DNA of 24,854 nt from a bacterium (GTDB taxonomy: Bacteria > Zhuqueibacterota > Zhuqueibacteria > Oceanimicrobiales > Oceanimicrobiaceae): contig JBHHXT010000057.1 of assembly GCA_046757165.1 (NCBI GenBank), positions 1-24,854 of the forward strand. Reading direction: 5' to 3'. Shown here in pieces: positions 1,610 through 17,938 of this stretch (positions within the stretch are counted from its first letter, which is position 1; every line of letters begins with the position of its first letter). The notes beneath the pieces were generated by a model, which saw nothing but the letters and a program-made list of their open reading frames with translations, did no database searches and was not told the DNA's origin. The translations under genes were made by a program, and so were the position numbers.

Positions 1610-1683
1610 GTGGTAATCTCCTTAAGGAACGTCATTTAAATAACCTGCCCATCTTGAAAGAACTCAGATTCTTTCATAAAGAA

Positions 1684-1814: not shown

Positions 1815-1824
1815 GATTACAATC

Positions 1825-4707
1825 TTACCTCAGCAGGCTCATCTTCCTGATCTGGACAAACTCTCCCGCTTCAATCCGGTAAAAATAGACCCCACTCGCT
1901 AGGACCTGGCCCTTGCCGTCCCGGCCGTCCCAGCGAATCGTATGATAGCCGGCCGGATAGTCGGCGTTCGTCAGCACGCGAATTTTCTTGCCAAGCAGGT
2001 TGAAAATGCTGACCTGCACCCGGCTGGCTTCCGGCAATTGAAAGCGCAAAGTGGTTTCAGGGTTGAATGGATTCGGGTAATTCTGCTCGAGCGCATAGCT
2101 CGCGGGCAGCGATGCAGGGCCCTCGCCAACGCTCGTGAGAAAAGTCGCGCCCGCGAGCAAGCTATCGGGTTTCAAGAAGGTCAGGCCTTCGATATCCAGG
2201 GCTGCAGAGGACCTGGTTGGAAATTCTGTGCCGATTCCGGTGGTGGGATCGATGACGATGAATTTGTGCACCTCGCCGTTGCTGAAGCCGAAGAGCGTAT
2301 TCTGGGGGGAGAAGGCCAACCCCTCCACCTGGGGGAATCCGATGGTGTTTGTCGGATGAACAGGCGTGCCGGCTCCTGTTGCCAGATCAATGACGAGCAG
2401 CTTGCCGGTTTTAGTGTCGGCGCCATAGAGCACGACCGTGGAATCAGCTTCGACCCGAAATGTGATCGCCTCGACATCCCTGAATCCGAGCGCCCCGATT
2501 TCTGTCACTGCGGCCGTGGTCCTGTCGATGAGAAGGAGCTGGTGCGAGGAATTGTCCACGCCAAACAGCTCGCCGGTGACGGGATTCACCGCGATGTCCT
2601 CGATGTCGTCTGAGCCGGTGCTGCCGATGAAAGCCGCTGCAAGGTTCCTCGCCGCCAACGGCATGGGGCCGCCCAGAACGCTGCCGTCGATGGCGTACAG
2701 GGGACCGTCATCCTCGTTGGAGATAAGAAGCAGGCGGCGCGATCCCGGGTCCCAGGTCATGGCTTCCAGATCGACGATGCTTGCACTGCCATCCGTGACC
2801 GTGCCCCAATTGACCGCCAAAGGGTTTGTGTCCTTGACATTGACGCGCACCAGGAAGTCATTGTCGCCGTCAACGCCAAACATGAAACTCGGGGCGGCCG
2901 GATCCACTGTCACCGTCATGTCGGCCGTCAAGGCGGTATTTTCAGTGCCGACGGTGACCAGTCGCGCGACGGTCTGCTGCAAGCCGGGAATCTCGATAAC
3001 CGTCGTCAACCGGAAATTGCCTTGGCCATCGGTACTGTCGTCGGCGATCGGGTCCGGGCCCAGAAAGACATGGGCTGCCTCCGTGGGCGGCAAGCCCTCT
3101 GCCGTGATTTCGACGGTGCCGGCGTTGGGTATTCTTTCCGGCTGCACCGAACCGGTCGGGAAGCCAGGGGTGCGAAAGGATAAGCGGAAGCTGTTTGTTC
3201 TATCGATCTCCCCGGTTCTGAAATTCTCGGCAATGGCGAGATATCTCACGATAGGCAGGATTTCCGTTCGATTGTCATGCACGCCCAACTGAATGATTTC
3301 GCCAACGGGCGAGCGAAAGCTGGTGTCGGAGGTGAAAATGTAGACCGAGTCTGAAACCAGGGTTGGCGTCAACAAGCTCTCGTCTCGGGGCTCGAAACGC
3401 TCGCTCTGGGTATTGAAAACAAAGCAATCCGCGGACAGGTGTGGGGAATCACTATAGATGAATTTCTTGAGGAAAACTCTGCCCACCATCTCGATGCCTT
3501 TTGCATCTGTCGGCACGTTCATGAGCTCAGGCGCGCCCCCCGTTCGTGGATCGTTGTCCGCATCCAACAGGAAGGTAAAACACAGGTCCGCTTCCCTTGT
3601 GTCGGCTATCAGACCTGCGGTGGTCAGAAAGAAGTGCGGCTCTCTGGCCACCTGCGCGATATCGATGACCATGCCGCCGACACCGATATCGATGATGTCG
3701 TTTTCCTCCTCAGCGGCGACGTCTTTGCGCGCGTCCGACCTCATGTCGGCAAACGGTCCCTTTTGCCGCGGAGCGCCACCACCTGCAGCCATCAGACTGC
3801 CTGGTGGGAAATGCTCTGTACCCGGAACATGGTTCAATGCCTGCTCCCGGATACAATCGCATTGCTCAACCGTCAGATTCTGTTCAACCGGATAGGCGGG
3901 AAACATCAGGTTGTGCTCCCATTCGTCCGCATCCACGGGCGCACATAAATCCCGGTTGACATGGTCCAGGGCCAGGGCGTGCAGCACTTCGTGCGCCAGG
4001 ATGGTCTCATGCGGATCATCTGCCAGGTCCGGCAAATTCAGAGGCGAGCCGGGCAGCATGTACGCCGCATCGATAACCATGACCCGGCCGATGTTGACTT
4101 GCACGCCGTCGTCGCATCTGAGATCATTAAACCCTCCGATGCCAAGATAGTCATCCACCGGGTTTCCTTCATCATCGATGAACCGGTTGATGTTGACCGC
4201 AACGATGCCGAACTCGCGGGCAAAAGAGAGTCTGTTGCCCACTGAATTCTTCAAGTTTGTCCAGGATTGACGCGCCAGGTCAATAGCCGCCAAATACTCA
4301 GTCAAATCCGGCCGCCGGTCTCGAATCGCCTCCCGCGAGCCCAGACTGATATCACCCGGGTTGCCAATCGTCAAATCCGGATCCGTAATCACGGGAAAAT
4401 TCGTGATGTCGCGGAAGGCGGCTGACCGCAGCGTGACATTGCACTGCGGGATCAGAATCCGGTCCGAAGCGCGCTCATGCCGGCGCCACAGGAGATCTTT
4501 CACGCTGCGTTCACCCACCAGCGAGGGATCATCGATGGAGGGGCTGCCTGCAATTCCCACCCATTTCAAGGGCACGGAAACCAGGCCCGAAGTCGCCGCG
4601 GTTTCAAAGCGGCTCTGTGATCTGGTCGCTTCAGGTAAAAGCACGTAGAGCAGAATCAAGAGCAGGGGCAGGGACCGGGTGGCTGCGACAATGGGGATAA
4701 GTCTCAT
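1825..4707 (-). CDS. Secreted metzincin-like zinc metalloprotease with beta-propeller region and FlgD-Ig/T9SS-like C-terminal domain
   Basis: Start moved to MRLIPIV (ATG 4707, GGGAGG 7 nt upstream). Hydrophobic signal peptide. HEVLHALALDH (3961-3993) followed by an NLM Met-turn. Repeated 'xEx(I/L)A(F/V)...L(F/Y)GxD' blades. C-terminal EQNYPNPFNP...WDGRD...SGVYFYR. Confidence 0.8.
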   Translation of the reverse strand: MRLIPIVAATRSLPLLLILLYVLLPEATRSQSRFETAATSGLVSVPLKWVGIAGSPSIDDPSLVGERSVKDLLWRRHERASDRILIPQCNVTLRSAAFRDITNFPVITDPDLTIGNPGDISLGSREAIRDRRPDLTEYLAAIDLARQSWTNLKNSVGNRLSFAREFGIVAVNINRFIDDEGNPVDDYLGIGGFNDLRCDDGVQVNIGRVMVIDAAYMLPGSPLNLPDLADDPHETILAHEVLHALALDHVNRDLCAPVDADEWEHNLMFPAYPVEQNLTVEQCDCIREQALNHVPGTEHFPPGSLMAAGGGAPRQKGPFADMRSDARKDVAAEEENDIIDIGVGGMVIDIAQVAREPHFFLTTAGLIADTREADLCFTFLLDADNDPRTGGAPELMNVPTDAKGIEMVGRVFLKKFIYSDSPHLSADCFVFNTQSERFEPRDESLLTPTLVSDSVYIFTSDTSFRSPVGEIIQLGVHDNRTEILPIVRYLAIAENFRTGEIDRTNSFRLSFRTPGFPTGSVQPERIPNAGTVEITAEGLPPTEAAHVFLGPDPIADDSTDGQGNFRLTTVIEIPGLQQTVARLVTVGTENTALTADMTVTVDPAAPSFMFGVDGDNDFLVRVNVKDTNPLAVNWGTVTDGSASIVDLEAMTWDPGSRRLLLISNEDDGPLYAIDGSVLGGPMPLAARNLAAAFIGSTGSDDIEDIAVNPVTGELFGVDNSSHQLLLIDRTTAAVTEIGALGFRDVEAITFRVEADSTVVLYGADTKTGKLLVIDLATGAGTPVHPTNTIGFPQVEGLAFSPQNTLFGFSNGEVHKFIVIDPTTGIGTEFPTRSSAALDIEGLTFLKPDSLLAGATFLTSVGEGPASLPASYALEQNYPNPFNPETTLRFQLPEASRVQVSIFNLLGKKIRVLTNADYPAGYHTIRWDGRDGKGQVLASGVYFYRIEAGEFVQIRKMSLLR

Positions 4708-4831
4708 GGTTCGTCCTCCCTGGTGTTGCAGATCCCCCCGCGAGGGAATCAGGAACACCGTCTAAACCTTATCTGGCAAAGACAACTTTATCGCGCATCC
4801 AACATAATGTTGGACACCGGGAGTGCCAATC

Positions 4832-5111: not shown

Positions 5112-7952
5112 CTACTGAACCAGGAGCATTTTTTGAGTCTTTGCAAACTGTCCGGCGCGCATGCGAACAAAGTAGACGCCGCTGGCCACCAGGCGGCCAT
5201 GCAGGTCCCGGCCATCCCAGACCGAGGCATGATTGCCCGCATCTTTGGCTTCATCATCCACCAGAGTCTGAACCCTCTCCCCCAAAATGTTGAACACCGC
5301 CAGCGTCACTCTTCCCTGCGCCGGCAGCCCAAATCGAATGGTGGTTACGGGATTGAACGGATTCGGATAATTCTGTGACAAATAAGAATCTGCCGGAATT
5401 TCCGCTTCATGGGCAAGATGCTGGCGGATGAATTCCGGGCGGCCCACGACCACTTTAAGCCGGCGTCTGCGTTCGGATTCTGAACCCGCAAACTCATAAT
5501 GGTCGCTGCTCCGGAGATCCCGGGCAAGGCCGGTCGCCTTATCCACCAGCCAGACCTCGAAGCCTGCGGGGACGGTTTCCTGCCCTTCGAAGATGAGGTG
5601 AACTTTGTCGCGAATGTTGGTGATCACCTCTATGTCCCAGACATCACCGTCCACAAGCTCAGGTCGAGCGTCAGTAGAGTACCGGTCGAAATGTCTCCCC
5701 CACTCTGGATGTGGAAAGTAGGCCGTTATGAAGTCCCCGATGACGGGGGGTTCAGGTCTGTCAAGATTGTCCAGCTCGTGAGAGGCCTGTTGATGTACCA
5801 GAATCTTTGTGTCACCGTCCAGGGCTTGGTGACACCGGGCGCGGATCCGGATGGACCAGGAGTCGAATGCTGCTTCCGGGAGTGAGCCGTTATTCTTTCC
5901 TGTACCTTCAACCGCAAATATTTGCGGATTCACGAAGAGGGTATCGACAACATCGTCTCTGTTTGCGACGGCGTATCCTTCAAACGGCCGCAGCGGTGAG
6001 CTGGCTTGACTCCAGCGGCCAGCGTAGAATCTGATATCAGGCGTGTTGCCAGATTTCAGGCGTAAATTCGCAAAGGGAATGTCGAAATCAAACGGATCGC
6101 CAACAAAATTCCAGCCCGGATGCAGCGGAATGGCAAATTCTCTGTTCGAAGGATTGGTCACCCCGGGACCGGTATCAATAGATTTGCCCGTTTCTTTGAC
6201 AATGAGCCAGAAGGCCCTGCCCGGCTCCATGTCGAAAAAGGTGTCCGGAAAATCGACGAGCTGTTGGTTTTCCGGCCGCAGCTCCACGAATCGCCATTTT
6301 GTATCATCGAAGGGGCCCAGGTCATCCTCGAGAACCGCAGCCGGGTCCTTCTCATCGAGGTCGAGGGGAACTGAGATGAGACGATAGGCTGTCGCTTCCG
6401 AGCCCCCTGGCTGGGGCACGGGATTGCCCAGGGAATCCCGTTTCACTTTCCCTTCGCCGGGGATGGAGACTGGCAACGAGAAAATCCCGGAACGCGGCAG
6501 CCTCGCTTTTCGCCCGTCGACATCCTGTGCCAGGATAAAATACTCGATGCCTCTCGAAGTCGAGTGCTCCGCCCGAATCGTTCCCTGATAGGTGAGGCTG
6601 TCCGTTCTGACCATCCCGACGCTGTCAAACGCCCGGCGGCCCCCCGGTCGAAACATCAGGGTAACCTCTTCCACCGTCGAGATTCCGGCTATTTTGGCCT
6701 GGATCGGGATGTCTTCGTTCTCTTCATGGGGTGACATGGGGTCTACCTCAATCGCCGGGGCGAAATCATAAATATACGCGGCGCCTGCCCGGTCGGCTAC
6801 TTCGTCATCGAATGGGGTGCCAACCATCGCCAGGTTGCCATCGAGTGAGACCGAGAATCCGAATCTATCGCCGGCCTCGCCCCGGCTGGCGAGCAGTTTT
6901 GCCAACTCGGTCCAGGTCGTATCTTTTCGGATGAACAGGGTGGCCGAGCCCGAATTGGTGCCGTTATCTTTGTCAAACTGCGCTCCGACCAGAAGCGTAT
7001 TCTCGCTCAGGCGCATCGAGGTGCCAAATTCATCATCGCTGTCTGCGTCGCTTGCGAGAAGCTTGTCATGTTGTCGCCAGCCCTCCTGCTCACGTTCAAA
7101 AATGTAGACAGCACCGGCATTGTTGCCACCGACTCCAAAGCTATCATCAAATGGCGCACCAACCGCAGCAACCTCCCCGCTGATGGTGACGGAAAAACCA
7201 AAACGGTCTGATTTTGCACCATCATTTGCCGTCAGAGGTGGTTGCTGCTGCCATGTCTGGCCGACGCGTTTGAAAACATAAGCCGCACCGGCGTCTTGCC
7301 CGCCGTCATGGTCATGGAAGGATGCCCCAACGAGTGCGAAATCATCAGAAATGGCCACCGACTGGCCAAACTGGTCAAACTCAGCGGCGTCACTGGCGGT
7401 GAGTTTTGCCACCATCCTGCCGTCTAGCTCGAAGATGTATGCCGCGCCCGAGGCGAGACCCACGATGTTCTCCTTCGGAGCGCCGACCAGAATATGCTCG
7501 CCATCCAAGGCAACGGCCGCGCCAAACCAGGCATTCTCTCCGCCATCTGGCATCTCGATTTTGGTGATCTCATTCCAGACACCGCCCTCTTTCTTGAAGA
7601 CGTAAACCGCGCCCCGGCTATTGTGAGAACGCGCTCCGACCAGTGCAACTTCACCGCTCAGAGCGACCGACATGCCGAATTCATCCCCCTCTCTGCCATC
7701 GCTGGCGAGAAGTTTTGCCTGCTCGTGCCAGCCATCGTTCCTGCGCTCGAATATGTACGCCGAACCCGTGCCGCCATTGCCGCGCCGGGTTCCGACCAGA
7801 GCATATTGTCCGGAAATTGAAACCGAACTTCCCAACTGGTCATTTGGACTCAAATCACTGGCTTTGATCTTGAACTCGGTTTGTGGCAGGACAGGGGGTG
7901 GGCAAGCGAGGAGGCAGAAAGTCACAAAGGATATCGTCAAGCTGGTTCGCAT
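5112..7952 (-). CDS. Secreted FG-GAP (integrin-alpha-like) 7-bladed beta-propeller protein with uncharacterised middle domains and FlgD-Ig/T9SS-like C-terminal domain
   Basis: Seven '(D)xFGxSV(A/S)(I/L)(S/D)G..ALVGA...GAAY(I/V)F' repeats, a signal peptide, and C-terminal SQNYPNPFNP...WDGRD...ASGVYFVR. Start is ATG 7952 or TTG 7964. Confidence 0.88.
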   Translation of the reverse strand: MRTSLTISFVTFCLLACPPPVLPQTEFKIKASDLSPNDQLGSSVSISGQYALVGTRRGNGGTGSAYIFERRNDGWHEQAKLLASDGREGDEFGMSVALSGEVALVGARSHNSRGAVYVFKKEGGVWNEITKIEMPDGGENAWFGAAVALDGEHILVGAPKENIVGLASGAAYIFELDGRMVAKLTASDAAEFDQFGQSVAISDDFALVGASFHDHDGGQDAGAAYVFKRVGQTWQQQPPLTANDGAKSDRFGFSVTISGEVAAVGAPFDDSFGVGGNNAGAVYIFEREQEGWRQHDKLLASDADSDDEFGTSMRLSENTLLVGAQFDKDNGTNSGSATLFIRKDTTWTELAKLLASRGEAGDRFGFSVSLDGNLAMVGTPFDDEVADRAGAAYIYDFAPAIEVDPMSPHEENEDIPIQAKIAGISTVEEVTLMFRPGGRRAFDSVGMVRTDSLTYQGTIRAEHSTSRGIEYFILAQDVDGRKARLPRSGIFSLPVSIPGEGKVKRDSLGNPVPQPGGSEATAYRLISVPLDLDEKDPAAVLEDDLGPFDDTKWRFVELRPENQQLVDFPDTFFDMEPGRAFWLIVKETGKSIDTGPGVTNPSNREFAIPLHPGWNFVGDPFDFDIPFANLRLKSGNTPDIRFYAGRWSQASSPLRPFEGYAVANRDDVVDTLFVNPQIFAVEGTGKNNGSLPEAAFDSWSIRIRARCHQALDGDTKILVHQQASHELDNLDRPEPPVIGDFITAYFPHPEWGRHFDRYSTDARPELVDGDVWDIEVITNIRDKVHLIFEGQETVPAGFEVWLVDKATGLARDLRSSDHYEFAGSESERRRRLKVVVGRPEFIRQHLAHEAEIPADSYLSQNYPNPFNPVTTIRFGLPAQGRVTLAVFNILGERVQTLVDDEAKDAGNHASVWDGRDLHGRLVASGVYFVRMRAGQFAKTQKMLLVQ

Positions 7953-7974
7953 TTCGATAGACAATGGTCAGCCT

Positions 7975-8514
7975 CTATTCATTGTCGGGGAATGCCGGCG
8001 GATCCGGCAACCGAGCCGGCTTCGATGAGCCAGAATCGACCGAGATTTTCAAAATCGCCGCGCCAGCAGCAAGTCCGACGCCCACCAGGATGAATCGCCT
8101 GATGCGACTCCCCGTCTGCTTGCGCCCGGCCCGAATCCTCTTCTCCTGTTCCACAAAGGTTCGAAAGAGCGGATCATCACTGGGCTCGGGCTCATAATTC
8201 TCATTTAGATTCAGCAGCTGTTTTACGGTCTCTCTGGCTTTGTCGAGGTTGTCTTCAGCACTGTAGGACAGAGCCAAGAAGCGATATCCCTGGACTTTGT
8301 CGGCCTCGTCAACGCTGTCCGGCAGGCAGCGGTTCAGGAGTACAATCACCTCGGCTGTGCGACCGATCCGGTAGAGGTTCTGTGCATCAGAGACAGCGGT
8401 GTCACATTTGTCTTGTGCGAACAGGTCGTTTGTGTCAACTGCCCAAGCGACCGCCAGCAACAAGATCAGGAGAACCAGCGGTCGGGGAGCAATGAAAGGG
8501 ATTTGGTTGGACAT
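7975..8514 (-). CDS. TPR-like protein with N-terminal signal peptide and C-terminal TM helix followed by a Pro-rich LPDPPAFP tail
   Basis: Start moved to MSNQIP (ATG 8514, AGGAGAAGG upstream), because the ORF-track extension runs through heptamer repeats. 'GYRFLALSY...ARETVKQLLNLNENYEP' is TPR-like. RIRR-FILVGVGLAAGAAIL is a TM segment. Confidence 0.75.
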   Translation of the reverse strand: MSNQIPFIAPRPLVLLILLLAVAWAVDTNDLFAQDKCDTAVSDAQNLYRIGRTAEVIVLLNRCLPDSVDEADKVQGYRFLALSYSAEDNLDKARETVKQLLNLNENYEPEPSDDPLFRTFVEQEKRIRAGRKQTGSRIRRFILVGVGLAAGAAILKISVDSGSSKPARLPDPPAFPDNE

Positions 8515-8533
8515 ATACCTTCTCCTGAGCCGG

Positions 8534-8646
8534 AAATTCGAAATCCTGAGCTCCAAAATCGCAAATCGTAAATCTTCGTGGTCAGAAATCTGATATGCGA
8601 TATATGATTGACGATCTCCGATTTACGATCTACAATCAACGCTTTT
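8534..8646. repeat. Inverted arrays of degenerate heptamers (AAATCGY units, then YGATHTA-like units)
   Basis: Left arm AAATTCG AAATCCT ... AAATCGC AAATCGT AAATCTT (8534-8576). Right arm in strict 7-nt period: TGATATG CGATATA TGATTGA CGATCTC CGATTTA CGATCTA CAATCAA (8591-8639). Confidence 0.7.
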
Positions 8647-8706
8647 GGGTTTTGCAACTGCCCCCTCATAAGATAGGTGCAATTCCAGCCGCAGATTCTC
8701 TCAGAT

Positions 8707-11430
8707 CTAAAGCTGAGATGCTGAGGAGGCGCCGGACGTCACCCCTTTCCCGGCCGGCAAGGTCGGGCAGGTGCGTTGGTATCGAATATCCTCCCCGATG
8801 TACTGGACCCATTCTGCCAGACTCAAATTGCGCGTGCAGACGGCGCATACTTTGTTTGCCAGAAGCTCAACGTCGATTGTCCAGAAGCGAACGGTTTTAT
8901 CCTTGCTGCCTGAGGCGAGGTGCGTGCCATCGGGACTGAATGCCACGGACCACACCCAGTTTTGGTGGTCGGCAAGAACGATGGGGTCGGCGGTGAGATT
9001 GGAGAGATCCCACAGCCTGACGCTGTGGTCCGAGCTGCTGGAGGCGAGTTTCTGACCGTCCCGGCTGAAGGCCAGAGAGTTGACCGGACCGACATGCCCC
9101 AGAAGTGTTTGCTTGTTCTCGGGCGCCTCATCTTCGCCAACATGCCAGAGCAAGATCTTGCCATTGACGCCGCCGGTAGCCAGGATACTGCCAGCAGGAT
9201 CAAACGCCAACGCGCGCACGCCCCCTTCGTGCTGGAGCTTATGCCCGAGTGAGGGGGGAGCAGACGCTAACGCGGCCGGAGCAAATTGACTGCCGGCCAG
9301 GAGCAGGATGGAGCCGTCATCACAAGCCGCCGCAATGCGGCCGTTGCCAGCCACCGTAACGGACCGTATTCTTGCAGTCAGGGCCACCCTGTGGACCACC
9401 GGATTGTCGGTGGCGTCCACCTGCAGAACCACGAGCCAGCCGTCGGCGCCGCCCAGAATGAGCCGCTGTCCGGTTTCGTTGAACGCCAGGGACCAGATTC
9501 TATCCGAGTGCTGGTACAAGATCTTGGGCTGAGGCCGCTGTTCCTGTAAGCGCCACAGACGAACCGTGCTGTCATTGCTGGCTGAGGCCAGCAGCGATTC
9601 ATCCGGACTGAAAGCGACCGCGCGCACGCCAGCCGAATGGCCGGTGAAAATTCCGGGCGAGCCCGTGCCCGAGCCAATATTCCAGAGCCGGATGGTACCA
9701 TCATCGCTTGCCGAGGCAACCGTTCCAGTCACTGGACCGAACGCGACCGAGCGAATGCCATCCGAGTGCGCCCGCCAGACCTGAGGCCCGCCGGCATTGA
9801 ATTCCGGCGAGTTCAGGGCAGTTCGCAACGCGTCGTAGATTTCGTTTTGCAACTGTCCCTGACTCCAGATGTAGGCCTGGCGTGCCAGGAGGAGGCCTAA
9901 TTCGTGCGCGCCGAGCTGTTGCTGCTGACGCGCTTGTATCGTCAAGAGGCGCGCTTTGTCGATGCGTCGCAATCGTTCCGCCACGCTCAGATTGGCGAAC
10001 GCGACGACTTTCAGACTGTCGGCACGTTCCCGTTCGAGGCGCTGTTTCCTCGCTGACAATTCTGCCAGAAGTCTCTGTTTGTTGGCGATTTCACTCTGTT
10101 CCAGAACCTGCTGCAGCGCATCCTGTTCTCGCTTCAAAGCTTCCTCGGCCTGGATTCTAAGCGAGTCCGCCGCCTTCTGCGCCAATCTGGTTTGTTCCAG
10201 CGCACGGTCCGCGTTTTCTCTGGCATCCTGCTCCTTTTGCGCCAAATTGAAGGCCGCAATCGCCAGCGAAATCGAGGTCACCAGCAAGACCAGAATAAAC
10301 GCACTCGCCACCTTGACACTGGTTGGCACGGTGGCCAACCAGCTGGTCGGCCAGTGGTCTTTCAGCCAGCGGCGGTCGAAGACGTGGTGGTAGATGGCGT
10401 TGCGCACGTGCAGCCGGCCGTCATCGTCCCGGCGGACGATGCCGGAGAGTTTGAGATGGCTCTTGACCGCGGTTTGCTCCTCGTCTGGTACCGGCCGCCT
10501 GCCCAGTCGAATGTCGCGGTAGGTGGTCAGCACTGCGAGCTGCCCCGGGTCGCGTTTGGAGAGCAGCATGTCGCGCACGAACAGCAGGTTGTTGTCCTGT
10601 TCGCTCATCTTGCCAAAGAAGGTGCGGGCGACGGCCTGGTCGACCTCGGCTTCGGTCCATTCATTTTTAAACTGTTCGGCGATGGTTCGGCAGAGCCGCT
10701 GGGTCAGGTAGGGATGACCGCCACTCCACTTCATCACCCAGTGCAGGACCTGCCGGGCGTGTTCGGGTGGCAGCTTCAACCCCTCCGACAGTGGCAGCGC
10801 CTCTTCCTCTGTAAAGTCGGTCAGCTCAACACGCTGCCCGATGTTGAACGGGGTGCGGCGCCGGTCCTGAATCAGGTCCCCCGGCGCTGCGACACCGATC
10901 AGGACAAAGGAGAGACGCTTGAATTCCGGGGATTCAGCGCGTGCGTTATGGAGGTAGCGGATGGCGGCAAAGAAATCGTCTGTGAAACTCAGATTGAGCG
11001 TGGTGTCGATCTCATCCACAAAAATCACAATACGGCCAGGAACATCTTTCAACAATACATCCTGGAAGAATTGCGTGAGCTGGTGTGTTGCGCCCAGGTC
11101 CGAGTGGGCGCGCCACCAGCTGACCACGTCTGCTTTTGGAATCAGCTTCTTCTGGATTTCATAGAGCAGGCCCAGGTACCAGCTTTCGGCGCTCAGTTGG
11201 ATGCCGATTTTGGTGAGGTCGATGATGACGGAATGAATGCCTTCTTTGGCGAGCGCTTTCGAGGTGCGGTGCATCAGGCTGGATTTACCGACCTGACGCG
11301 AGGACAGGATGTGGGCGAAGGCGCCGTCGCGGCAGAGCTCGAGCAGCTCCGCATCCGCCTGGCGTGTCACGTACAGAGCATCTGCTTCCAGGATCGTGCC
11401 GCCGACGGTGTACAGGCTGTGCTTACGCAT
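8707..11430 (-). CDS. AAA_35-type (STAND-like) P-loop NTPase - TM helix - coiled coil - 7x WD40 protein
   Basis: 'LYVTRQAD', Walker A SSRQVGKSS, Walker B IVIFVDEID, TPFNIG, GGHPYLTQRLC, RNAIY. TM VASAFILVLLVTSISLAIAAF, a Q/E/A/R-rich coiled coil, seven GH...VAFSPDG...W(D/N) repeats, and C-terminal 'C..RNLS..EW..Y...TCP'. Confidence 0.9.
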   Translation of the reverse strand: MRKHSLYTVGGTILEADALYVTRQADAELLELCRDGAFAHILSSRQVGKSSLMHRTSKALAKEGIHSVIIDLTKIGIQLSAESWYLGLLYEIQKKLIPKADVVSWWRAHSDLGATHQLTQFFQDVLLKDVPGRIVIFVDEIDTTLNLSFTDDFFAAIRYLHNARAESPEFKRLSFVLIGVAAPGDLIQDRRRTPFNIGQRVELTDFTEEEALPLSEGLKLPPEHARQVLHWVMKWSGGHPYLTQRLCRTIAEQFKNEWTEAEVDQAVARTFFGKMSEQDNNLLFVRDMLLSKRDPGQLAVLTTYRDIRLGRRPVPDEEQTAVKSHLKLSGIVRRDDDGRLHVRNAIYHHVFDRRWLKDHWPTSWLATVPTSVKVASAFILVLLVTSISLAIAAFNLAQKEQDARENADRALEQTRLAQKAADSLRIQAEEALKREQDALQQVLEQSEIANKQRLLAELSARKQRLERERADSLKVVAFANLSVAERLRRIDKARLLTIQARQQQQLGAHELGLLLARQAYIWSQGQLQNEIYDALRTALNSPEFNAGGPQVWRAHSDGIRSVAFGPVTGTVASASDDGTIRLWNIGSGTGSPGIFTGHSAGVRAVAFSPDESLLASASNDSTVRLWRLQEQRPQPKILYQHSDRIWSLAFNETGQRLILGGADGWLVVLQVDATDNPVVHRVALTARIRSVTVAGNGRIAAACDDGSILLLAGSQFAPAALASAPPSLGHKLQHEGGVRALAFDPAGSILATGGVNGKILLWHVGEDEAPENKQTLLGHVGPVNSLAFSRDGQKLASSSSDHSVRLWDLSNLTADPIVLADHQNWVWSVAFSPDGTHLASGSKDKTVRFWTIDVELLANKVCAVCTRNLSLAEWVQYIGEDIRYQRTCPTLPAGKGVTSGASSASQL

Positions 11431-13789
11431 TCAGATGGTCCTTGAAGTAGTCAGCATAGAGCTGGCAGCGTGGCAAGACCGAACGACCCTCCTTGCGCAC
11501 CAACCCCGCGCCCCGCAACCGGAAGTAAACATGGTCATCCTCGCATTCATGCTTGCGAATCACTTGTTTCAATCCGGCGATGAGCTCGTTCTTGCCTTGC
11601 AAGCGCCAGAGATGATGGCGGAGATGGTCGCCGAAAGGACCGCTCTCCTCTGCGGCATGACGAACCAGCTCGGCATACGTCATGCGGCCACTGGCGACGC
11701 AATAGAGCGTGCGGCGCACCAGAAACGGCTGGCCGCCCACAAGGTGCAACAACTGTTTCTCTTGCTTCGCTGAGAGAGGGGAGCGATGACGGCGATTCAG
11801 CTCAGCAACATCCTGGAGAGCAAAATCGGTCAATTCGATCACCTCGCCAACATTGAACGGGGAGAGGTTGAGATTCTCGATGAGCTGATACGGCTCGGTA
11901 GAGGTGACCAGGACCAGATCCAGCTTTCTCCAGCTCGATCCTTCCTGGCGGCTGTTGTGCCAACTGCGCAACATGCCGAAAAAGTCGGTGCGAAAATCGG
12001 TGTCGAAGATGCTTTCCACTTCGTCCATGCCCAAGACCAGGGGCTGTTTTACGCCTTGCAAGAGATGGTCCTCCACAAAGCTGGTGCAGCGCTGGATATT
12101 GCCGAGTGGAATCTGCCAATACTCATCGACTCTGTTCTCCAGTTGCAGTTTGTAAGTGAGCCATGCGCAGAACTGCTGAAAAAATCGGTCCGCCGAGCCC
12201 AATGCTGATTTGTCGAACTGCTGAAAATCGAGAAAGACGGTTCGTTTGCCCAGCGCTTGTGCGGCTTTGATCGTTCGCAGCAAAAGCGAGCTTTTCCCCA
12301 TCTGTCTCGGTGCTTTAATAGTAATAGTGACCCCCTGTCGCTGGATAGTCTCGAGTGCCGCCAAATCTGACGGGCGTTCGATGTAGAAAGCCGAATGGGG
12401 GTCCATGGTCCCTTCCGGAGATTCGAGCTCGGGCAGCGGGGGAAGCAGCGCTTGCGCCTCTCCGGCCCGGATGACATTTGCCTTCTCGTTTGTGCTGATG
12501 GGGAGCTGCTCCCGGCCTTCGATGGCGGCCGTGAGCTCCTGGATCAGCCGCGGGGTCTCCTCTGGCCCATCCCACAACGCCCAGTTGATGGGGTCCAGAT
12601 AGCGCCGGAGGTGGTAGGGGAAGGGTTCCCGAAAAGCCAGCCTGACCGGCAGAATCCGGGGTTTGCCGCCCTTCTGCCTCGCCAGCTCGTGTGCGGTTTG
12701 GATTTCAGCGCGCACCATTTCGCTCTGGATAGAATGCGCCGACAGGAGAATGACGAGATAATCCGTCTGCTGCAGCTCCCTCATGATCCGTTCCACCCAC
12801 CGCGCGCCGACAATCATGTTGCGGTCGATGAACACCTGGTGATGCTGTCTCAGGGCCTCATAAATCTGCATGGCTACCGACTGGTCCGGCTCGACATTGC
12901 GCTTGTAACTCAGGAAAATGCGCCGTCGTGTGATCGGGCTCAGGCCTGGCGCCGACGCTGAGACCATGGGGACCAGATTCTCCAGCTCCGCCAGCAGGGC
13001 ACCCGCCGTATGATATCGCTCGGCCCTGTCCTTACTGAGGGATTTTTCGATGACGCGCACCAGGCTATCCGGGAGATCCGTCCGCAGGTGCGTGAGCTTC
13101 TCCGCCTGCTCATGCCGGATGGCATACAAGACGGCCAACAGATTATCGCCCTTGAAAGGACGCTGTCCGGTGAGCATTTCGTACATCAAGACGCCAAGCG
13201 ACCAGATGTCTGTGCGGCCATCCACTTTCAGACCATGCGCCTGCTCCGGGGACATGTAGTGCACCGTGCCAATGGCCGTATGTTCTTTGGTGATGTCTTT
13301 GGTGATCTCTTGCTGGTGCACAAGCTTAGCCAGGCCAAAGTCCAGTATTTTGACCACGCCATCCCTTGTGATCATGATGTTGGCGGGTTTAATGTCACGG
13401 TGGACTATCTTCTTGCTGTGCGCGATTGCCAGACCACGCGCGGCCTGGGCAGCAATGTCGACGGCCTCGTTCACGGGCAGTTTGCCGCGCGCTACTTTTT
13501 TTTGCACCGTCTCGCCGTCATAGTAGGCCATGGCGATAAAGAGGCCGCCAGGCTTGTTTTCATCTATTTCGTAGACCGTGCAAATATTTTGGTGGTCAAG
13601 CCGGGAGACCGCCTGGGCCTCGCGCATGAAACGCGCTTTCGCCTCTTTATCCAGCGTCAGCTCTGGGCGCAGGAACTTGAGCGCAACGGCCCGCCTCAGC
13701 TTGATATCCTCAGCCTTGTAGACGGTCCCCATTCCGCCATGGTCGAGCTCCTGCAAAATCTTGTAGTGTGAAACTGTCTTGCCAAGCAT
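11423..13789 (-). CDS. Hanks-type Ser/Thr kinase - TIR - AAA_35 (STAND-like) fusion protein
   Basis: Kinase motifs GGMGTVY, VALK, HRDIKPAN, DFG, YMSPEQ, DIWSLG. TIR motifs IFLSY, VFID, W..I..L..D.LVILLS..S..S.MVRAE, ILPV. AAA_35 motifs FYIER, APRQMGKSS, LVLGMDEVE, SPFNVG, GGQPFL, RCQLY. The stop codon overlaps the next gene by 8 nt. Confidence 0.92.
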   Translation of the reverse strand: MLGKTVSHYKILQELDHGGMGTVYKAEDIKLRRAVALKFLRPELTLDKEAKARFMREAQAVSRLDHQNICTVYEIDENKPGGLFIAMAYYDGETVQKKVARGKLPVNEAVDIAAQAARGLAIAHSKKIVHRDIKPANIMITRDGVVKILDFGLAKLVHQQEITKDITKEHTAIGTVHYMSPEQAHGLKVDGRTDIWSLGVLMYEMLTGQRPFKGDNLLAVLYAIRHEQAEKLTHLRTDLPDSLVRVIEKSLSKDRAERYHTAGALLAELENLVPMVSASAPGLSPITRRRIFLSYKRNVEPDQSVAMQIYEALRQHHQVFIDRNMIVGARWVERIMRELQQTDYLVILLSAHSIQSEMVRAEIQTAHELARQKGGKPRILPVRLAFREPFPYHLRRYLDPINWALWDGPEETPRLIQELTAAIEGREQLPISTNEKANVIRAGEAQALLPPLPELESPEGTMDPHSAFYIERPSDLAALETIQRQGVTITIKAPRQMGKSSLLLRTIKAAQALGKRTVFLDFQQFDKSALGSADRFFQQFCAWLTYKLQLENRVDEYWQIPLGNIQRCTSFVEDHLLQGVKQPLVLGMDEVESIFDTDFRTDFFGMLRSWHNSRQEGSSWRKLDLVLVTSTEPYQLIENLNLSPFNVGEVIELTDFALQDVAELNRRHRSPLSAKQEKQLLHLVGGQPFLVRRTLYCVASGRMTYAELVRHAAEESGPFGDHLRHHLWRLQGKNELIAGLKQVIRKHECEDDHVYFRLRGAGLVRKEGRSVLPRCQLYADYFKDHLNA

Positions 13790-13826: not shown

Positions 13827-14025
13827 TTCAGGTGTCAGGTGTTTAGACTGTAGGCGGTTAGGCGGTTAGGGTTTTGGCCAATGCGCCAATCAACGCGCCT
13901 AAGACTTTTTGGTGCCGAATAGATGTTCACTGCCAATTTGTCGGCTAACTCAAAAGCTCGAAGTTTCGTATGCTCTCTCAACGATTTTTCCTACAGCCTA
14001 AACGTCTACAGCCTATCTACCTGAA
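13827..14025. mobile_element. ~200-bp cassette bounded by inverted 7/8-mer tandem repeats (TAGGCTG/TAGGCGGT units, both arms starting TTCAGGT) around a four-helix-bundle gene remnant
   Basis: Left arm TTCAGGTGTCAGGTGTTTAGACTGTAGGCGGTTAGGCGGTTAGG (13827-13870). Reverse complement of the right arm (13990-14025) is TTCAGGTAGATAGGCTGTAGACGTTTAGGCTGTAGG. Mobility is inferred. Confidence 0.6.
13858..13981 (-). pseudogene. Internally deleted four-helix-bundle protein gene (23S rRNA-IVP / bAvd-like family)
   Basis: Manual translation from TTG 13981 gives (M)REHTKLRAFELADKLAVNIYSA, resembling the family N-terminus. At ~13910 it joins out of frame to KVLGALIGALAKTLTA* (13908-13858), resembling the final helix. 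About 40 codons remain of an expected ~115-120. Confidence 0.7.
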
Positions 14026-14028
14026 TAG

Positions 14029-14988
14029 TCATCCCTTTGCCCCCTCGCGCGGCTTTCTCCCGCCTTCCCTGATGTTGACCACCTTGCTCAACATATCGAA
14101 CCAGAAAGGAGCGCCAAGAGAAATGGCGAGCGCCGTCAGGAGCCAGCCTGTGATCTTGGTGAAAAGCCAGGCCCAGTCTTTTCCTTTTGAGAGCTGCAAG
14201 TCGCCAAATCTCTTCGACTCATCCTTCCAGCTCATGCCGAGCAGCTTTCCCGTCATCGCAATCTCGCTCTTCACCAGGGAGTCAGCTTGCAGGAATAACG
14301 CCTCGATATCCTCCCGATGCTGCGCCCGGGTGGACTCATCCATCTGATATTTCTCTGCCAGCTCGACGACGGCTTTTCTTGCCCGCGGATTGGTCGAGAG
14401 CGTTTGCACGATGTTGAAGGTATCCGCATTGAAGGTCACACTCAGAACGAGCCCGATAACCAGTGAGATGACCCGCACTTTACTTTTGTACCACTCGGTG
14501 GCGTGACTCATCATATCATCGTACCAGTTCTCCAGGTTCAGCCGCAGGTGCTCCAGGTTGTCGGCGGCGTCTCGTACAAAGCCTTTGAGAAGTCTGTTCG
14601 TGTCGCTGTCCGCCGGAAAGATGTCGTCGATTTTTCCCTCCAACTGGGCGGGAGTGATGTTGTTGGCGTGGCCGTCGACCAGGGTCTCGAGCAAAACTTT
14701 TGAAAACGTCTGGTTTGACAAGAAAGCCGGAGGGGAGGCCAGCCCCAGTTTGTTGAGGACGGGCCGAATGCTCGATTTCTTGATGAGCGGGTGCGCGTAA
14801 AATTTGCTGCAGAAATCAATCTCGTTGCCCGCCTCATCAAACATTATGCTGATCACTTTGCGAAGATTCTTGCCGCGCAGGGCGAGGAAGTTCGCAATCA
14901 GCTCGTTGATCGTGGTGGCAAGCAAGCTCAACAACAAGTAAACGAAGATGAGACCGAGAACAACTTCGAGAACTCCGGAACCGAACAT
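14029..14988 (-). CDS. Uncharacterised integral membrane protein (~3 TM; LEVxxGLxFVYLLLSL ... GWLLTALAISLGAPFWFD)
   Basis: Start moved to MFGSGVLEV (ATG 14988, GGAG upstream), because the ORF-track extension begins inside a REP. Three hydrophobic segments and a soluble helical loop with 'LENWYDDMM...WYK'. Confidence 0.78.
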   Translation of the reverse strand: MFGSGVLEVVLGLIFVYLLLSLLATTINELIANFLALRGKNLRKVISIMFDEAGNEIDFCSKFYAHPLIKKSSIRPVLNKLGLASPPAFLSNQTFSKVLLETLVDGHANNITPAQLEGKIDDIFPADSDTNRLLKGFVRDAADNLEHLRLNLENWYDDMMSHATEWYKSKVRVISLVIGLVLSVTFNADTFNIVQTLSTNPRARKAVVELAEKYQMDESTRAQHREDIEALFLQADSLVKSEIAMTGKLLGMSWKDESKRFGDLQLSKGKDWAWLFTKITGWLLTALAISLGAPFWFDMLSKVVNIREGGRKPREGAKG

Positions 14989-15127
14989 GAGTCTTTCTCC
15001 AGGGTTTGACGATGGGTGATGACTCTGACTAATAATTAACATTTTGCAAAAAGTCAAGAGAAAACATTCGGTCGGAAAACGGCAAACGTGTCCGGGGCTG
15101 TCCAGGTGGAGAACCACCACCGATGAT

Positions 15128-15219
15128 GTAGCCATGCCCCCTTGTGGGGCAGATATCGAATATCAATAAGAATCACCATGCGGGGAGATAACAAGCCACC
15201 CACAAGGAGTGGCGGCTAC
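15128..15219. repeat. GTAG-type REP doublet (REPIN-like), two inverted REPs
   Basis: GTAGCC-A-TGCCCC-CTTGT-GGGGCA at 15128-15151 on +. GTAGCC-GCCACTC-CTTGT-GGGTGGC at 15219-15195 on -. The two are separated by a ~43-nt spacer. Confidence 0.75.
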
Positions 15220-15327: not shown

Positions 15328-17739
15328 TTATTTATCGATCGTCCTCGCTGTTCCAGCCTGAAGCTCCTGTGTCAACACCTCCCGTACCTTCTTGCCGAGG
15401 GTCTCTTTGGTAAACGGTTTTTGCAGGACGACGTAAGATTCTTGCTCAGCGCTGCTCAGACCCGGTATCGCGGAATGAACGTCATAGCCTGTCACAAAGA
15501 TAACAGGCAAATCTGGAGACATCAGGTTTAACGCCTTGTAGGTGTCGATGCCACTCATTTCAGGCATGACAACATCGATGATCACCAGATCGATGGTGTT
15601 GCTTTGTTGCTGGAATACGGACAATCCTTCTTTGCCGCTGCGCGCTGTGAGAACTCTGTACCCCAGGCCGCTCAGGATTCTGCCGGTCACTTTGAGAACG
15701 GCGTCTTCATCCTCGACCACCAGAATGGTTTCCCATCCGCCGGGAATGGTTTCTTTTGTTCGTGTGTTCACTCTCTCTGAGGCTGGCAGGGTCACGGCTG
15801 GCAAAAAGATGTGGAAGGTCGCGCCCTTCTGCCGTTGGCTCTCGATTTGGATGACACCGTGGTGCCGTTTGACGATGCCGTAGGCCACAGCCAGGCCGAG
15901 CCCGGTGCCCTGACCCACTCCCCTTGTCGTATAGAAGGGTTCAAAGACGTGCGCCCTGGTTTCTTCGTCCATGCCAACTCCTGTGTCAGAAACCGACATC
16001 TGCACGAAATTCTTTGCCGCATGAGAATCAGCGTGGCCTTCTTGCGCGGCTGTCTCATACAGCCATCTCTCGTCTGCCACAAAGTTCCGGGTGGCGATGG
16101 TCAGCCGGCCTCCTTTTGGCATCGCATCGCGGGCATTGACCGTGAGATTCATCAACACCTGCTGGATCTGAGCGGGGTCGGCCATGACAGGACTCAGGTC
16201 GGCATCGAGGTGGGTCTCAATGTGAATATGCTCGCCGATGACCCGCTTCAAAAGTCTTGTTTGGTCCAGGATCAATCGATTGAGCTGAACCAGTTTTGGC
16301 TCGATCGCATGCTTCTTGCTGAAGGTCAACAGTTGGGTGGTCAGTTCGCGCGCCTGGATGGCAGCGGTTTCGATTTGCAGCAATTCTTCATGACCCCGCT
16401 CGCCGGGCTTGATATCCCGCAGACCGAACTCGGCATTTCCGAGCACGACCATCAGAAGATTGTTGAAATCGTGTGCCACGCCCCCTGCCAGCCTGCCGAT
16501 GGCTTCCATTTTCTGCGACTGCAGTAACTGCTGCTCCAGTCGCTTGCGTTCGGTGATGTCCATCATAAAGCCGACAAGCTCGCGTGAGCTGTTTTCAGCC
16601 GTCATCACGGTCACGACATCACGAATCCATACCACCTCGCCAGTGGAGGCAATAGCGCGGTATTCAAAGTCGTGGTCCTCCACGCCGTCAGCGGCATTCA
16701 GACAGGACTGGTACGCACCTTCGCGATCGTCAGGGTGAATCCGCTCTTTCCAGACATTGAGGTCGATCCAGCTCTCTGCCGGATAGCCCAGGACCTGCTC
16801 GACTTGCTTTCCCATGTAGGTAAATCGTCCTGTCGCCTGATTGAGCTTCCACGGAATGGCATTGGTGGATTCCACTAAGGTGCGGTACTTTTTCTCGCTT
16901 TCCTTCAGCGCCTGTTCCGCCTCCTTGCGCTCAGTGATGTCGAGCACAACACCTTCATAATAATCAGGACTTCCCTCTCCTGAGCCTATCCGTAACATGT
17001 AATCTTCCACCCACAACTGGGTGCCGTCTTTCTTCTTCAGTCTGTAGACAAAGACCCCTTTGTGGTGCTGGCGGAATTCTTTGATGACCGCCTCCCTTTC
17101 CGCGGGACTGAAATAAACATCTCTCGGGATACTGACACACAGAAGTTCCTTCCGGCTTGCGTATCCGAGCATGTTGACCAAAGTAGAGTTGACTGTCAGG
17201 AACTTGCCCTCGCCGGTTGACTGGTAGATCCCGACCGGCACGCGTTCCACGATCTGCCGGTACTTGGCTTCACTCGCACGCAATGCCTCCTCTGCTTGCA
17301 CGCGCTCGGTGACATCGGCAGTGACGACCATCACTTCTGTAACTTTGCCACCGTGCAGGATCGGTGCCACACGGCTCTCACACCAGGCGTGGGTGCCGTC
17401 CTTCTTCACAACCGGGGTCACATACTTTTGGGGTTGGCCAGATTCAAAGACAGAGTCGAGGATGTCTTTTAGTTTGCTTTGTTCGCTCGGTGTCAGGAAA
17501 GTGTATGCGCTGGTTCCGACAACTTCATCGAGGTTGCCATCCGAGCAGGTGCGATTGAGGAAAAGGATCTTGCCGCTGCGGTCCAGAGTGACGATGCGTT
17601 CCGGGGCATGCTGCAACAAAGAGCGCCATTTCTTCTCTTCTTGCGGGCCTTTACTCACTCTCTCCTCGAGCTCAGCTACCTGCTGGCGCAAACCCTGCAA
17701 CTCTTCAATGAGCTGCTCTCTGGTCTTTCTTTCGTCCAT
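15328..17739 (-). CDS. Cytoplasmic hybrid sensor histidine kinase (3 PAS/PAC - HisKA - HATPase - receiver; CckA-like architecture)
   Basis: Three PAS/PAC units ending DVTER/DITER. H-box LAGGVAHDFNNLL, N-box QQVLMNLTVNARDAM, DTGVGM, FEPFYTT, GTGLGL. Receiver VVEDE...IDVVMP...TG...KPF. GGAGG RBS before ATG 17739/17742. Confidence 0.93.
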   Translation of the reverse strand: MDERKTREQLIEELQGLRQQVAELEERVSKGPQEEKKWRSLLQHAPERIVTLDRSGKILFLNRTCSDGNLDEVVGTSAYTFLTPSEQSKLKDILDSVFESGQPQKYVTPVVKKDGTHAWCESRVAPILHGGKVTEVMVVTADVTERVQAEEALRASEAKYRQIVERVPVGIYQSTGEGKFLTVNSTLVNMLGYASRKELLCVSIPRDVYFSPAEREAVIKEFRQHHKGVFVYRLKKKDGTQLWVEDYMLRIGSGEGSPDYYEGVVLDITERKEAEQALKESEKKYRTLVESTNAIPWKLNQATGRFTYMGKQVEQVLGYPAESWIDLNVWKERIHPDDREGAYQSCLNAADGVEDHDFEYRAIASTGEVVWIRDVVTVMTAENSSRELVGFMMDITERKRLEQQLLQSQKMEAIGRLAGGVAHDFNNLLMVVLGNAEFGLRDIKPGERGHEELLQIETAAIQARELTTQLLTFSKKHAIEPKLVQLNRLILDQTRLLKRVIGEHIHIETHLDADLSPVMADPAQIQQVLMNLTVNARDAMPKGGRLTIATRNFVADERWLYETAAQEGHADSHAAKNFVQMSVSDTGVGMDEETRAHVFEPFYTTRGVGQGTGLGLAVAYGIVKRHHGVIQIESQRQKGATFHIFLPAVTLPASERVNTRTKETIPGGWETILVVEDEDAVLKVTGRILSGLGYRVLTARSGKEGLSVFQQQSNTIDLVIIDVVMPEMSGIDTYKALNLMSPDLPVIFVTGYDVHSAIPGLSSAEQESYVVLQKPFTKETLGKKVREVLTQELQAGTARTIDK

Positions 17740-17938
17740 CATAACACCTCCTCGCAGGGCCGCGAGTTGAGTGGGAACAGTAAACTCCTTCGGAGCGAGC
17801 ACTTTCTTGAGCCAAAAGGTCGGAAAACATTACGAAATTACGAAAAAAAACGTGTCTTAACAACATAAAAGAAGAATGACGGCCAATTCTTGCATGAATT
17901 TTTCTTAACATATCCCGGTTTTGTTATGAAGAGCACCG

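What the first reader, a model, noticed from the sequence alone, without database searches (positions are those of the whole stretch)
8707..13789. Translationally coupled paired-STAND module: kinase-TIR-AAA_35 plus AAA_35-TM-WD40, a candidate trans-membrane NLR/TLR-like system
Seen: two adjacent genes overlap by 8 nt (ATGCGTAA), and each has an AAA_35-type NTPase with Walker A (APRQMGKSS / SSRQVGKSS) and Walker B motifs. One partner carries outputs only (Ser/Thr kinase + TIR). The other carries a TM helix and a 7-bladed WD40. Known: STAND NTPases oligomerise on ligand sensing, and bacterial TIR domains act as NADases or signal producers when oligomerised. Inference: sensor and effector are split over two NTPase subunits that hetero-oligomerise, passing an envelope signal to both phosphorylation and TIR activity. 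I do not recognise this three-domain fusion as a characterised defence system.
Basis: partly seen in the sequence, partly recalled or inferred. Interest (0 to 1): 0.8.

Follow-up and report, generated by a model that had tools for sequence, protein, structure and literature searches.

The report
Paired-NTPase membrane receptor in secretion cassette
Two overlapping genes encode a membrane-spanning ATP switch with an outward-facing sensor and a sister switch carrying a kinase and a TIR domain, and in this lineage they sit in a four-gene cassette where ordinary receptor kinases can take their place, so they look like an untested way of carrying an envelope signal into the cell.

Summary
Observation confirmed: kinase-TIR-AAA_35 (gene A, 11423-13789) overlaps AAA_35-TM-WD40 (gene B, 8707-11430) by ATGCGTAA. 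The two NTPase domains are distinct paralogous subtypes, both with intact Walker motifs, folding like archaeal MNS-clade STANDs. Pairing is near-obligate across phyla: B beside A in 74 of 79 loci, A beside B in 58 of 61. The helix after STAND-B is conserved (59 of 69; 66 of 73 in a second set), and the propeller most likely faces the periplasm. New here: the pair heads a cassette with a signal-peptide TPR-TM gene (7975-8556) and a large secreted protein (5112-7964); in relatives the same slot holds kinase-TM-PEGA receptors or nSTAND1-TM-WD40 with a TIR partner. That favours trans-membrane signalling; a defence role is neither shown nor excluded. The family is Pfam AAA_35, probably the Npun2340/2341 family (recalled, not checked), differs from the nSTAND2 two-gene operon, and I found no characterisation in nine literature searches. 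The scan noted this gene-pair family before on other DNA, including a kinase-TIR copy.

The parts
11423..13789 (-). Gene A, 788 aa: Hanks Ser/Thr kinase - TIR - STAND subtype A; cytoplasmic effector subunit
   Evidence: no hydrophobic segment; 0 of 77 A relatives have a 19-aa window with KD >= 1.9
13007..13765 (-). Kinase domain (aa 9-261): K38, E57, HRD 130-132, DFG 150-152 present; first glycine of the G-loop is Asp16
   Evidence: 50-57% identical to many kinases of the same genome (59 tblastn HSPs at E<1e-20)
12593..12919 (-). TIR_2 domain (aa 291-399) with the glutamate at the catalytic position, E362
   Evidence: E in 72 of 74 aligned N-terminal regions; catalytic role by established TIR knowledge
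11441..12418 (-). STAND subtype A (AAA_35), C-terminal, no sensor after it; K499, D589-E590
   Evidence: K, D, E invariant in 66 of 66; C-terminal in 59 of 59 full-length metagenome copies
11423..11430 (-). 8-nt stop/start overlap ATGCGTAA
   Evidence: the last 8 nt of gene A begin with ATG in 23 of 77 relatives
8707..11430 (-). Gene B, 907 aa: STAND subtype B - TM - helical stalk - WD40 propeller - two-Cys tail; membrane receptor subunit
10351..11430 (-). STAND subtype B (aa 1-360): K49, D139-E140, R192 at the likely arginine-finger position
   Evidence: K 66/66, D 66/66, E 65/66, R192 65/66
10240..10311 (-). Single transmembrane helix (aa 374-397), predicted N-in
   Evidence: KD 2.54; conserved in 59 of 69 and 66 of 73 relatives; more basic before than after in 47 of 59
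8866..9774 (-). WD40 propeller, about seven blades, predicted periplasmic sensor
8767..8847 (-). C-terminal Cys862/865...Cys888 motif, possible disulfide
   Evidence: two Cys 17-36 aa apart in the last 110 aa of 30 of 37 complete WD40-type B proteins, against 5 of 173 interior control windows
7975..8556 (-). Gene C, 179-193 aa: signal peptide - two-Cys TPR-like domain - C-terminal hydrophobic helix - proline tail; conserved third gene
   Evidence: directly after B in L024, L026, L028, L029, L031, L044, L071, L112, L242; Atlas look-alikes are TPR proteins; no Pfam hit
5112..7964 (-). Gene D, 950 aa secreted protein: FG-GAP propeller (variable slot) - conserved all-beta region - FlgD-Ig/Por-tail-like C-terminus
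   Evidence: tail hits just under cut-off; 10 nt after gene C; conserved region found after C in relatives; only Ig-like partial fold matches

Best explanation
A two-subunit trans-membrane STAND switch. B is an inner-membrane receptor: STAND in the cytoplasm, one helix across the membrane, a helical stalk and WD40 propeller in the periplasm. A is its soluble partner: a paralogous STAND with nothing after it, carrying kinase and TIR. A ligand or state change outside (plausibly involving the exported TPR protein C and/or secreted protein D, or their cleavage or damage) clusters B; B and A form a mixed ATP-bound oligomer; clustering activates the kinase by trans-phosphorylation and lets the TIR domains assemble an NAD+-consuming or messenger-making site. 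In this lineage the kinase is probably the main output, making the pair a stand-in for a one-chain receptor kinase. Shown: anatomy, motifs, pairing, cassette and slot exchange. Inferred: topology (strongly), A-B binding, ligand, outputs and physiology.
For: Pairing both ways: 74 of 79 A loci have B (3 of the 5 misses end at or near the contig edge), 58 of 61 B loci with >=1200 nt upstream have A. A and B form separate clades (22 vs 22 rows, SH-aLRT 100, quick tree) and their distances correlate (Spearman 0.75; best of 999 permutations 0.38). Both keep Walker A/B; an Arg in the AAA+ box-VII position is kept in B (65/66) and replaced by Gln in A (62/66), an asymmetry expected of a mixed ring. 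Topology: helix in 59 of 69; absent in 4 of 4 where a cytoplasmic domain (CHAT, kinase, T2SSE, DUF4062) follows directly; CHASE2 follows it in two; two-Cys tail. Cassette: of 25 gene-C loci examined, 10 follow a WD40 tail and 12 a PEGA-like tail; of 20 fetched regions, 10 have kinase-PEGA, 6 nSTAND1, 1 caspase-TM-PEGA, 1 CHAT, 1 WD40 tail only, 1 contig end. Of 7 A genes in gene-C cassettes (window included) 6 carry a kinase. ECF sigma genes flank the kinase-TIR copies L044 and L071.
Against: No experiment, no RNA data and no structural model of the complex. Across the wider family TIR (73 of 78) and CHAT (30 of 78) dominate the A slot, which are death/immunity effectors in characterised systems. 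No ECF43-like sigma was found in this genome by tblastn at E<1e-6, so the kinase substrate is unknown here. The kinase has Asp in place of the first G-loop Gly and B has Ala at a position that is Thr in 60 of 66. Gene C is wider spread than the pair (45 versus 14 of 167 genomes) and is absent after FGE-type and 14-blade B genes (L025, L027, L250), so it may only be a neighbour of a common kind of operon. Distance correlation also follows from shared ancestry. Most B proteins without the early helix but with WD40 were not checked by a topology predictor.
Confidence: 0.55

Rival explanations
1. Same architecture, but the job is immunity: B detects a phage, predator or contact-toxin signature in the envelope and A kills or arrests the cell by NAD+ depletion and phosphorylation (a Toll-like or NLR-like abortive system).
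For: TIR with conserved Glu in 73 of 78 A proteins, CHAT in 30, also PNP, trypsin, calcineurin-like: the effector set of Kaur et al. conflict systems (PMC8195603, section 7 read). Patchy spread (14 of 167 genomes), 39 plasmid records, hosts enriched in filamentous or multicellular groups. The alternative slot-fillers also carry TIR, DUF4062, SIR2-like and caspase domains.
Against: No PADLOC or NCBIfam system model matches above generic kinase/propeller level. Nearest neighbours hit PADLOC in 12 of 125, about half of them generic kinase, TPR, WD40 or CHAT models, with no baseline run. Window neighbours are secreted proteins and a hybrid histidine kinase.
Confidence: 0.3
2. A and B work in one pathway but as separate homo-oligomers, or B merely holds A inactive at the membrane and releases it.
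For: Both have complete Walker motifs; orphan A and B genes occur on different contigs of one genome (G037, G162), and B lies divergent or upstream in 6 of 79 loci.
Against: A never has a sensor and B rarely has an N-terminal effector; the putative arginine finger is kept only in B; orphans still co-occur in the same genome.
Confidence: 0.1
3. The hydrophobic stretch is not a membrane span; B is a soluble Apaf-1-like sensor of cytoplasmic ligands.
For: WD40 sensors of characterised STANDs are cytoplasmic (established knowledge); three WD40-type B proteins lack the helix in the first 50 residues (L033, L084, L087).
Against: Conservation of hydrophobicity without sequence, basic flank on the STAND side, CHASE2 tails, loss when a cytoplasmic enzyme follows, two-Cys tail; those three have a hydrophobic stretch further on.
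Confidence: 0.05

Closest known systems
MNS-clade STAND NTPases: PAB2304 (2QEN), SSO1545 (2FNA); Npun2340/2341 family of Leipe et al. 2004
   Same: Best structural matches, Z 18.8 and 18.4 over about 310 residues; Pfam AAA_35; R in the P-loop. Kaur 2021 names Npun2340/2341 as an MNS family used in conflict systems (passage read). That this family is a cyanobacterial adjacent pair is my recall.
   Different: 14-16% identity; the solved proteins are single archaeal ATPases. The 2004 paper is not held, so identity with Npun2340/2341 is untested.
nSTAND2 two-gene operon (Kaur et al. 2021, PMC8195603)
   Same: Two adjacent STAND genes, predicted toroidal hetero-multimer (passage read).
   Different: There one copy is inactive and carries GT4 or HEPN; here both keep Walker motifs, one is membrane-spanning, and neither domain hits Pfam nSTAND1/2/3 even at E<=1.
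nSTAND1-TM-WD40/FGS conflict proteins with TIR partners (Kaur 2021; periplasmic STAND-CLec targets in PMC10907252)
   Same: STAND - TM - outside sensor layout; fills the same slot before gene C in 7 loci.
   Different: One NTPase only; the partner has no STAND domain.
Avs and bNACHT antiviral STANDs (Lee et al. 2026, PMC13581612)
   Same: STAND switch, TIR-type effector, WD40 or FGE sensors.
   Different: Described as single chains sensing phage proteins inside the cell; no mention of Npun or AAA in the main text and none of Npun, AAA_35, PF14516 in the 7 supplements held as text.
Sensor/helper NLR pairs (NAIP/NLRC4, plant paired NLRs) and Toll-like receptors
   Same: Division of sensing and output between paralogous NTPases; TIR plus kinase behind a membrane sensor (recalled; analogy).
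   Different: Different STAND clades; NLR pairs are cytoplasmic; TLRs have no NTPase.
Bacterial receptor Ser/Thr kinases (kinase-TM-PEGA; PknB-like; ECF43-associated kinases)
   Same: Homologous kinase; interchangeable position before genes C and D.
   Different: Here two NTPase domains on two chains sit between sensor and kinase; PknB model scores 313 against a cut-off of 450.

Membership tests
STAND NTPases | P-loop domain with Walker A and B followed by a GxP helical domain and winged helix | tested here: met
   Motifs invariant or nearly so in 66 A and 66 B; AF2 model of B pLDDT 90.6 aligns over about 300 residues with STAND and Orc/Cdc6 folds
STAND NTPases | Ligand-triggered ATP-dependent oligomerisation | not testable with these tools
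   needs biochemistry
Pfam AAA_35 (PF14516) | Score above the curated cut-off of 27 bits | tested here: met
   393 and 115 bits
MNS clade | Closest fold to SSO/PH-type archaeal ATPases | tested here: met
   PAB2304 and SSO1545 rank 1-2, more than 2 Z units above the next row; tested for B only, A is its paralogue (hhalign probability 100)
Npun2340/2341 family | Orthology to the two Nostoc punctiforme name-giving proteins | not testable with these tools
   Defining paper not held; many Nostoc pairs found but the old locus tags could not be mapped
nSTAND2 two-gene system | One of the two STAND domains has eroded NTP-binding motifs | tested here: not met
   Walker A K and Walker B D intact in 66 of 66 for both
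nSTAND2 two-gene system | Match to the nSTAND2 profile; GT4 or HEPN effector | tested here: not met
   No nSTAND hit; no GT4 or HEPN among 78 A N-termini and 69 B tails at E<=1e-5, best five families shown per protein
Avs / bNACHT antiviral STANDs | Effector-NTPase-sensor in one cytoplasmic chain | tested here: not met
   Split over two genes with a membrane helix
Avs / bNACHT antiviral STANDs | Protects against phage | not testable with these tools
   needs infection assays
Avs / bNACHT antiviral STANDs | Enriched beside defence genes | tested here: inconclusive
   12 of 125 nearest neighbours hit PADLOC, many generic, no baseline
Enzymatic bacterial TIR domains | Catalytic glutamate | tested here: met
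   E362, kept in 72 of 74
Enzymatic bacterial TIR domains | NAD+ cleavage | not testable with these tools
   needs an assay
Hanks Ser/Thr kinases | VAIK lysine, alphaC glutamate, HRD, DFG, APE | tested here: met
   first G-loop Gly is Asp

The most novel reading that the evidence does not exclude
A class of bacterial single-pass receptors that transduce through a mixed ring of two active STAND paralogues, with the arginine finger supplied only by the membrane subunit, and that in FCB-type bacteria is one of several interchangeable receptors (receptor kinase, nSTAND1 plus TIR, paired AAA_35) reading one conserved extracellular module made of the TPR protein C and the secreted protein D. With an outside sensor, TIR and kinase it would be a prokaryotic counterpart of a Toll/IRAK-type relay built from NLR parts.
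Probability: 0.3. Interest if true: 0.85.

Novelty: new variant of a known kind. Interest (0 to 1): 0.62.

Why it matters
Characterised bacterial STANDs are single chains that sense inside the cell. If the mixed ring is real it is a new transduction mechanism and gives a function to a large set of 'AAA-like domain' genes. The cassette adds a handle: C and D are concrete candidates for ligand or co-receptor, and cultured Nostoc and Hyalangium carry the pair, so the question is testable.

Tried and rejected
No RNA holder was listed for the region. No solved relative by sequence, only P-loop-level RecA hits. No match in annotated phages; one viral contig carries the pair (L191). The 368-aa gene upstream (14029-15135) has no Pfam, PADLOC or NCBIfam hit and no relative in the loci L022-L191: not counted as a part. 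PD-T4-6 and MADS6 PADLOC/NCBIfam hits cover only the kinase and were rejected. nSTAND2 membership rejected. The conserved region of D gave a model of pLDDT 71, pTM 0.49 and only partial Ig-like matches. A terminator-like hairpin follows D (4926-4908) but such sites are at chance frequency (10 versus 11.3). The careful A/B tree did not finish; the quick tree is quoted. An HMM-based estimate gave 32 of 68 overlaps of 8 nt; the direct count of ATG-NN-stop is 23 of 77 and is the one to use. Literature searches found no paper describing a paired AAA_35 system; subscription journals, Leipe 2004, Kaur 2021 supplement 13 and the cut tables of Lee 2026 were not seen and may bear on novelty.
Full report
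Observation. The two ORFs, their domains, the Walker motifs and the ATGCGTAA overlap are as described. Gene A is kinase (9-261), TIR_2 (291-399), AAA_35 (458-783). Gene B is AAA_35, a hydrophobic segment at 374-397, a charged alanine-rich helical stretch, about seven WD40 blades (553-855) and a short tail with cysteines. These are the only two AAA_35 matches in the 6.09-Mb genome. GC does not stand out from the flanks (54-62% against 51-60%). A contig of a second run of the same study bridges the junction.

Two subtypes. The two NTPase domains are 27% identical paralogues that fall into two clades across phyla (22 A and 22 B rows chosen from 66 pairs; SH-aLRT 100; quick tree). Subtype A always ends the protein (59 of 59 full domains) and carries effectors in front; subtype B starts the protein and carries a sensor behind. 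Both keep Walker A Lys (66/66 each) and Walker B Asp-Glu (66/66; 66 and 65/66). The model of B (pLDDT 90.6) is closest to PAB2304 and SSO1545 (Z 18.8, rmsd 4.6, 309 aligned; Z 18.4, 4.7, 310), ahead of plant resistosomes and Orc/Cdc6 (same picture). In that model R192 lies between the sensor-1 strand and the fifth strand, where AAA+ proteins have the arginine finger (established knowledge); it is Arg in 65 of 66 B and Gln in 62 of 66 A. That this Arg acts on A is inference.

Pairing. With A as query, 74 of 79 genome loci have B within the fetched flank: 68 directly downstream, 3 upstream on the same strand, 3 divergent; 5 have none, 3 of them at or near contig ends. With B as query in metagenomes, 58 of the 61 loci that have at least 1200 nt upstream have A; 19 of the 80 loci were too short and left out. 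Pair distances correlate (Spearman 0.75, permutation maximum 0.38), which shows joint inheritance, not binding. Hosts among the best 79 include Cyanobacteria, Chloroflexota, Acidobacteriota, Myxococcota, Rhodothermales and KSB1; these are the best 80 of 594 and lean towards the query's clade. In the window's phylum 14 of 167 genomes have it (the tally includes one unpublished genome); 39 plasmid records carry it.

Swapped modules. Of 78 A N-termini, 73 hit TIR_2, 30 CHAT, 4 kinase plus TIR, and single or few ParA-like, cyclase, PNP, trypsin, HTH and phosphoesterase domains. Kinase without TIR occurs too (L026, L028, L029; 9 of 53 in the metagenome set by motif). Of 69 B tails, 48 are WD40-type, 3 FGE, 2 CHASE2, 1 TPR, 4 cytoplasmic domains, 11 without a hit. 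The window's kinase is as close to the genome's own large kinase family (up to 57%) as to the kinase of the same fusion in a relative (53%), so it may be a local recruit.

Topology. A 19-residue window with KD >= 1.6 lies within 50 residues of the STAND end in 59 of 69 genome copies and 66 of 73 metagenome copies; at KD >= 1.9 it is 47 of 69 B against 0 of 77 whole A proteins. Net charge is higher before the helix than after in 47 of 59 and lower in 6. The helix is missing in all 4 copies where CHAT, kinase, T2SSE or DUF4062 follows directly, and CHASE2, an extracytoplasmic sensor, follows it in two. A two-Cys tail is present in 30 of 37 complete WD40 copies against 5 of 173 control windows. 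Three WD40 copies lack the early helix. No dedicated topology predictor was available.

The cassette. Gene C (7975-8556) has relatives directly after B in L024, L026, L028, L029, L031, L242, L044, L071 and L112, generally followed by a large secreted protein, often sharing D's conserved C-terminal half. It is absent after the 14-blade and FGE-type B genes of the phylum (L025, L027, L250). A profile of C hits 45 of 167 genomes (includes two unpublished genomes). Of 30 loci returned I examined 25 (own, two unpublished and two weak ones left out): the gene upstream ends in a WD40 tail in 10, a PEGA-like tail in 12, is unrelated in 2, and is off the contig in 1. In 20 larger regions (17 of these plus 3 more) the upstream gene is kinase-PEGA in 10 (helix detected in 9), nSTAND1 with a helix in 6 (TIR-DUF4062 or SIR2-like partner in 4), caspase-TM-PEGA in 1, CHAT in 1, a WD40 tail in 1, contig end in 1; 11 further regions gave one more of each main type (L246, L249). 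So three kinds of trans-membrane module fill one slot. Six of the seven A genes in such cassettes carry a kinase, and two lie next to ECF sigma genes; this genome gave no hit to that sigma.

Mechanism. Most likely B senses in the periplasm, clusters, and recruits A into a mixed ATP-bound oligomer that switches on kinase and TIR (0.55 for this as envelope signalling; 0.3 for the same machine used for defence; 0.1 for separate or inhibitory action; 0.05 for a soluble sensor). Anatomy, pairing and slot exchange are shown; binding, ligand and outcome are not. Evidence on defence is mixed: effector types and patchy spread are for it; PADLOC and NCBIfam give no system-level match, and 12 of 125 nearest neighbours hit PADLOC, about half generic, without a baseline.

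Comparison. Kaur 2021 (PMC8195603: abstract, section 7, passages, supplement search) names Npun2340/2341 as an MNS family with FGS sensors and describes a different two-STAND operon, nSTAND2, with one inactive copy. Kaur 2020 (PMC7159879: passages) has no mention of Npun or AAA_35. Lee 2026 (PMC13581612: abstract, sections 5 and 15, passages, supplement search) covers MNS clades in its tree without naming this pair. PMC10907252 (passages) predicts a periplasmic STAND-linked sensor. PMC11119718 (one passage) lists AAA_35 as an accessory domain of cyanobacterial sigma factors. PMC12419801 had no relevant passage. Leipe 2004 is recalled only. The analogies to NAIP/NLRC4, plant pairs, TLRs and ECF43 kinases are recalled. 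Earlier notes of this scan describe the same family on other DNA and reached a similar reading; they are not counted as support. A word search of those notes for the cassette returned nothing.

Verdict. A real, conserved, uncharacterised paired-STAND trans-membrane module: a new variant of a known kind. The kinase-TIR form is a recurrent variant; the addition here is the four-gene cassette with interchangeable receptors. Interest 0.62.

Noticed in passing
window 14029-15135 (-): 368-aa membrane protein 239 nt upstream of gene A, same strand; no Pfam, PADLOC or NCBIfam hit and no relative near other pairs.
   Followed up: partly
window 113-4758 (-) and 18283-20910 (+): Three more large secreted proteins with FlgD-Ig or cohesin-like tails; 1825-4758 has an HExxH-like stretch (HEVLH) that suggests a metallopeptidase.
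   Followed up: no
window 15328-17802 (-): PAS-PAS-PAS hybrid histidine kinase with receiver domain, co-directional with the cassette.
   Followed up: no
G000:C388:2554-3096 (-): Second copy of gene C in this genome, again followed by a large secreted protein but without a receptor gene in the 570 nt upstream; weaker matches on C46 and C49.
   Followed up: partly
L249 (G162:C409): One kinase-TM-PEGA gene followed by three repeats of gene C plus secreted gene.
   Followed up: partly
L030 (G054:C248): Two A genes in tandem, then a B whose tail is TIR plus nSTAND1 and has no early helix.
   Followed up: no
G037 (C100, C63) and G162 (C404, C285): A and intact B genes on different contigs of one genome; in G162 the B next to A is broken.
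   Followed up: partly
L044:3384-4528, L071:4601-5248: ECF sigma genes next to kinase-TIR-STAND-A in Rhodothermales, suggesting a transcriptional output there.
   Followed up: partly
L191: A complete TIR-A plus B-TPR pair on an IMG/VR viral contig.
   Followed up: partly
window 13862-13933 and 8311-8912: Contigs of both laid runs skip about 70 nt upstream of gene A, and depth rises at the intergenic stretches, pointing to short repeats or a strain difference.
   Followed up: no
L239, L240: A YkuD-like exported gene lies between the TIR partner and nSTAND1-TM-WD40, a further envelope link.
   Followed up: no
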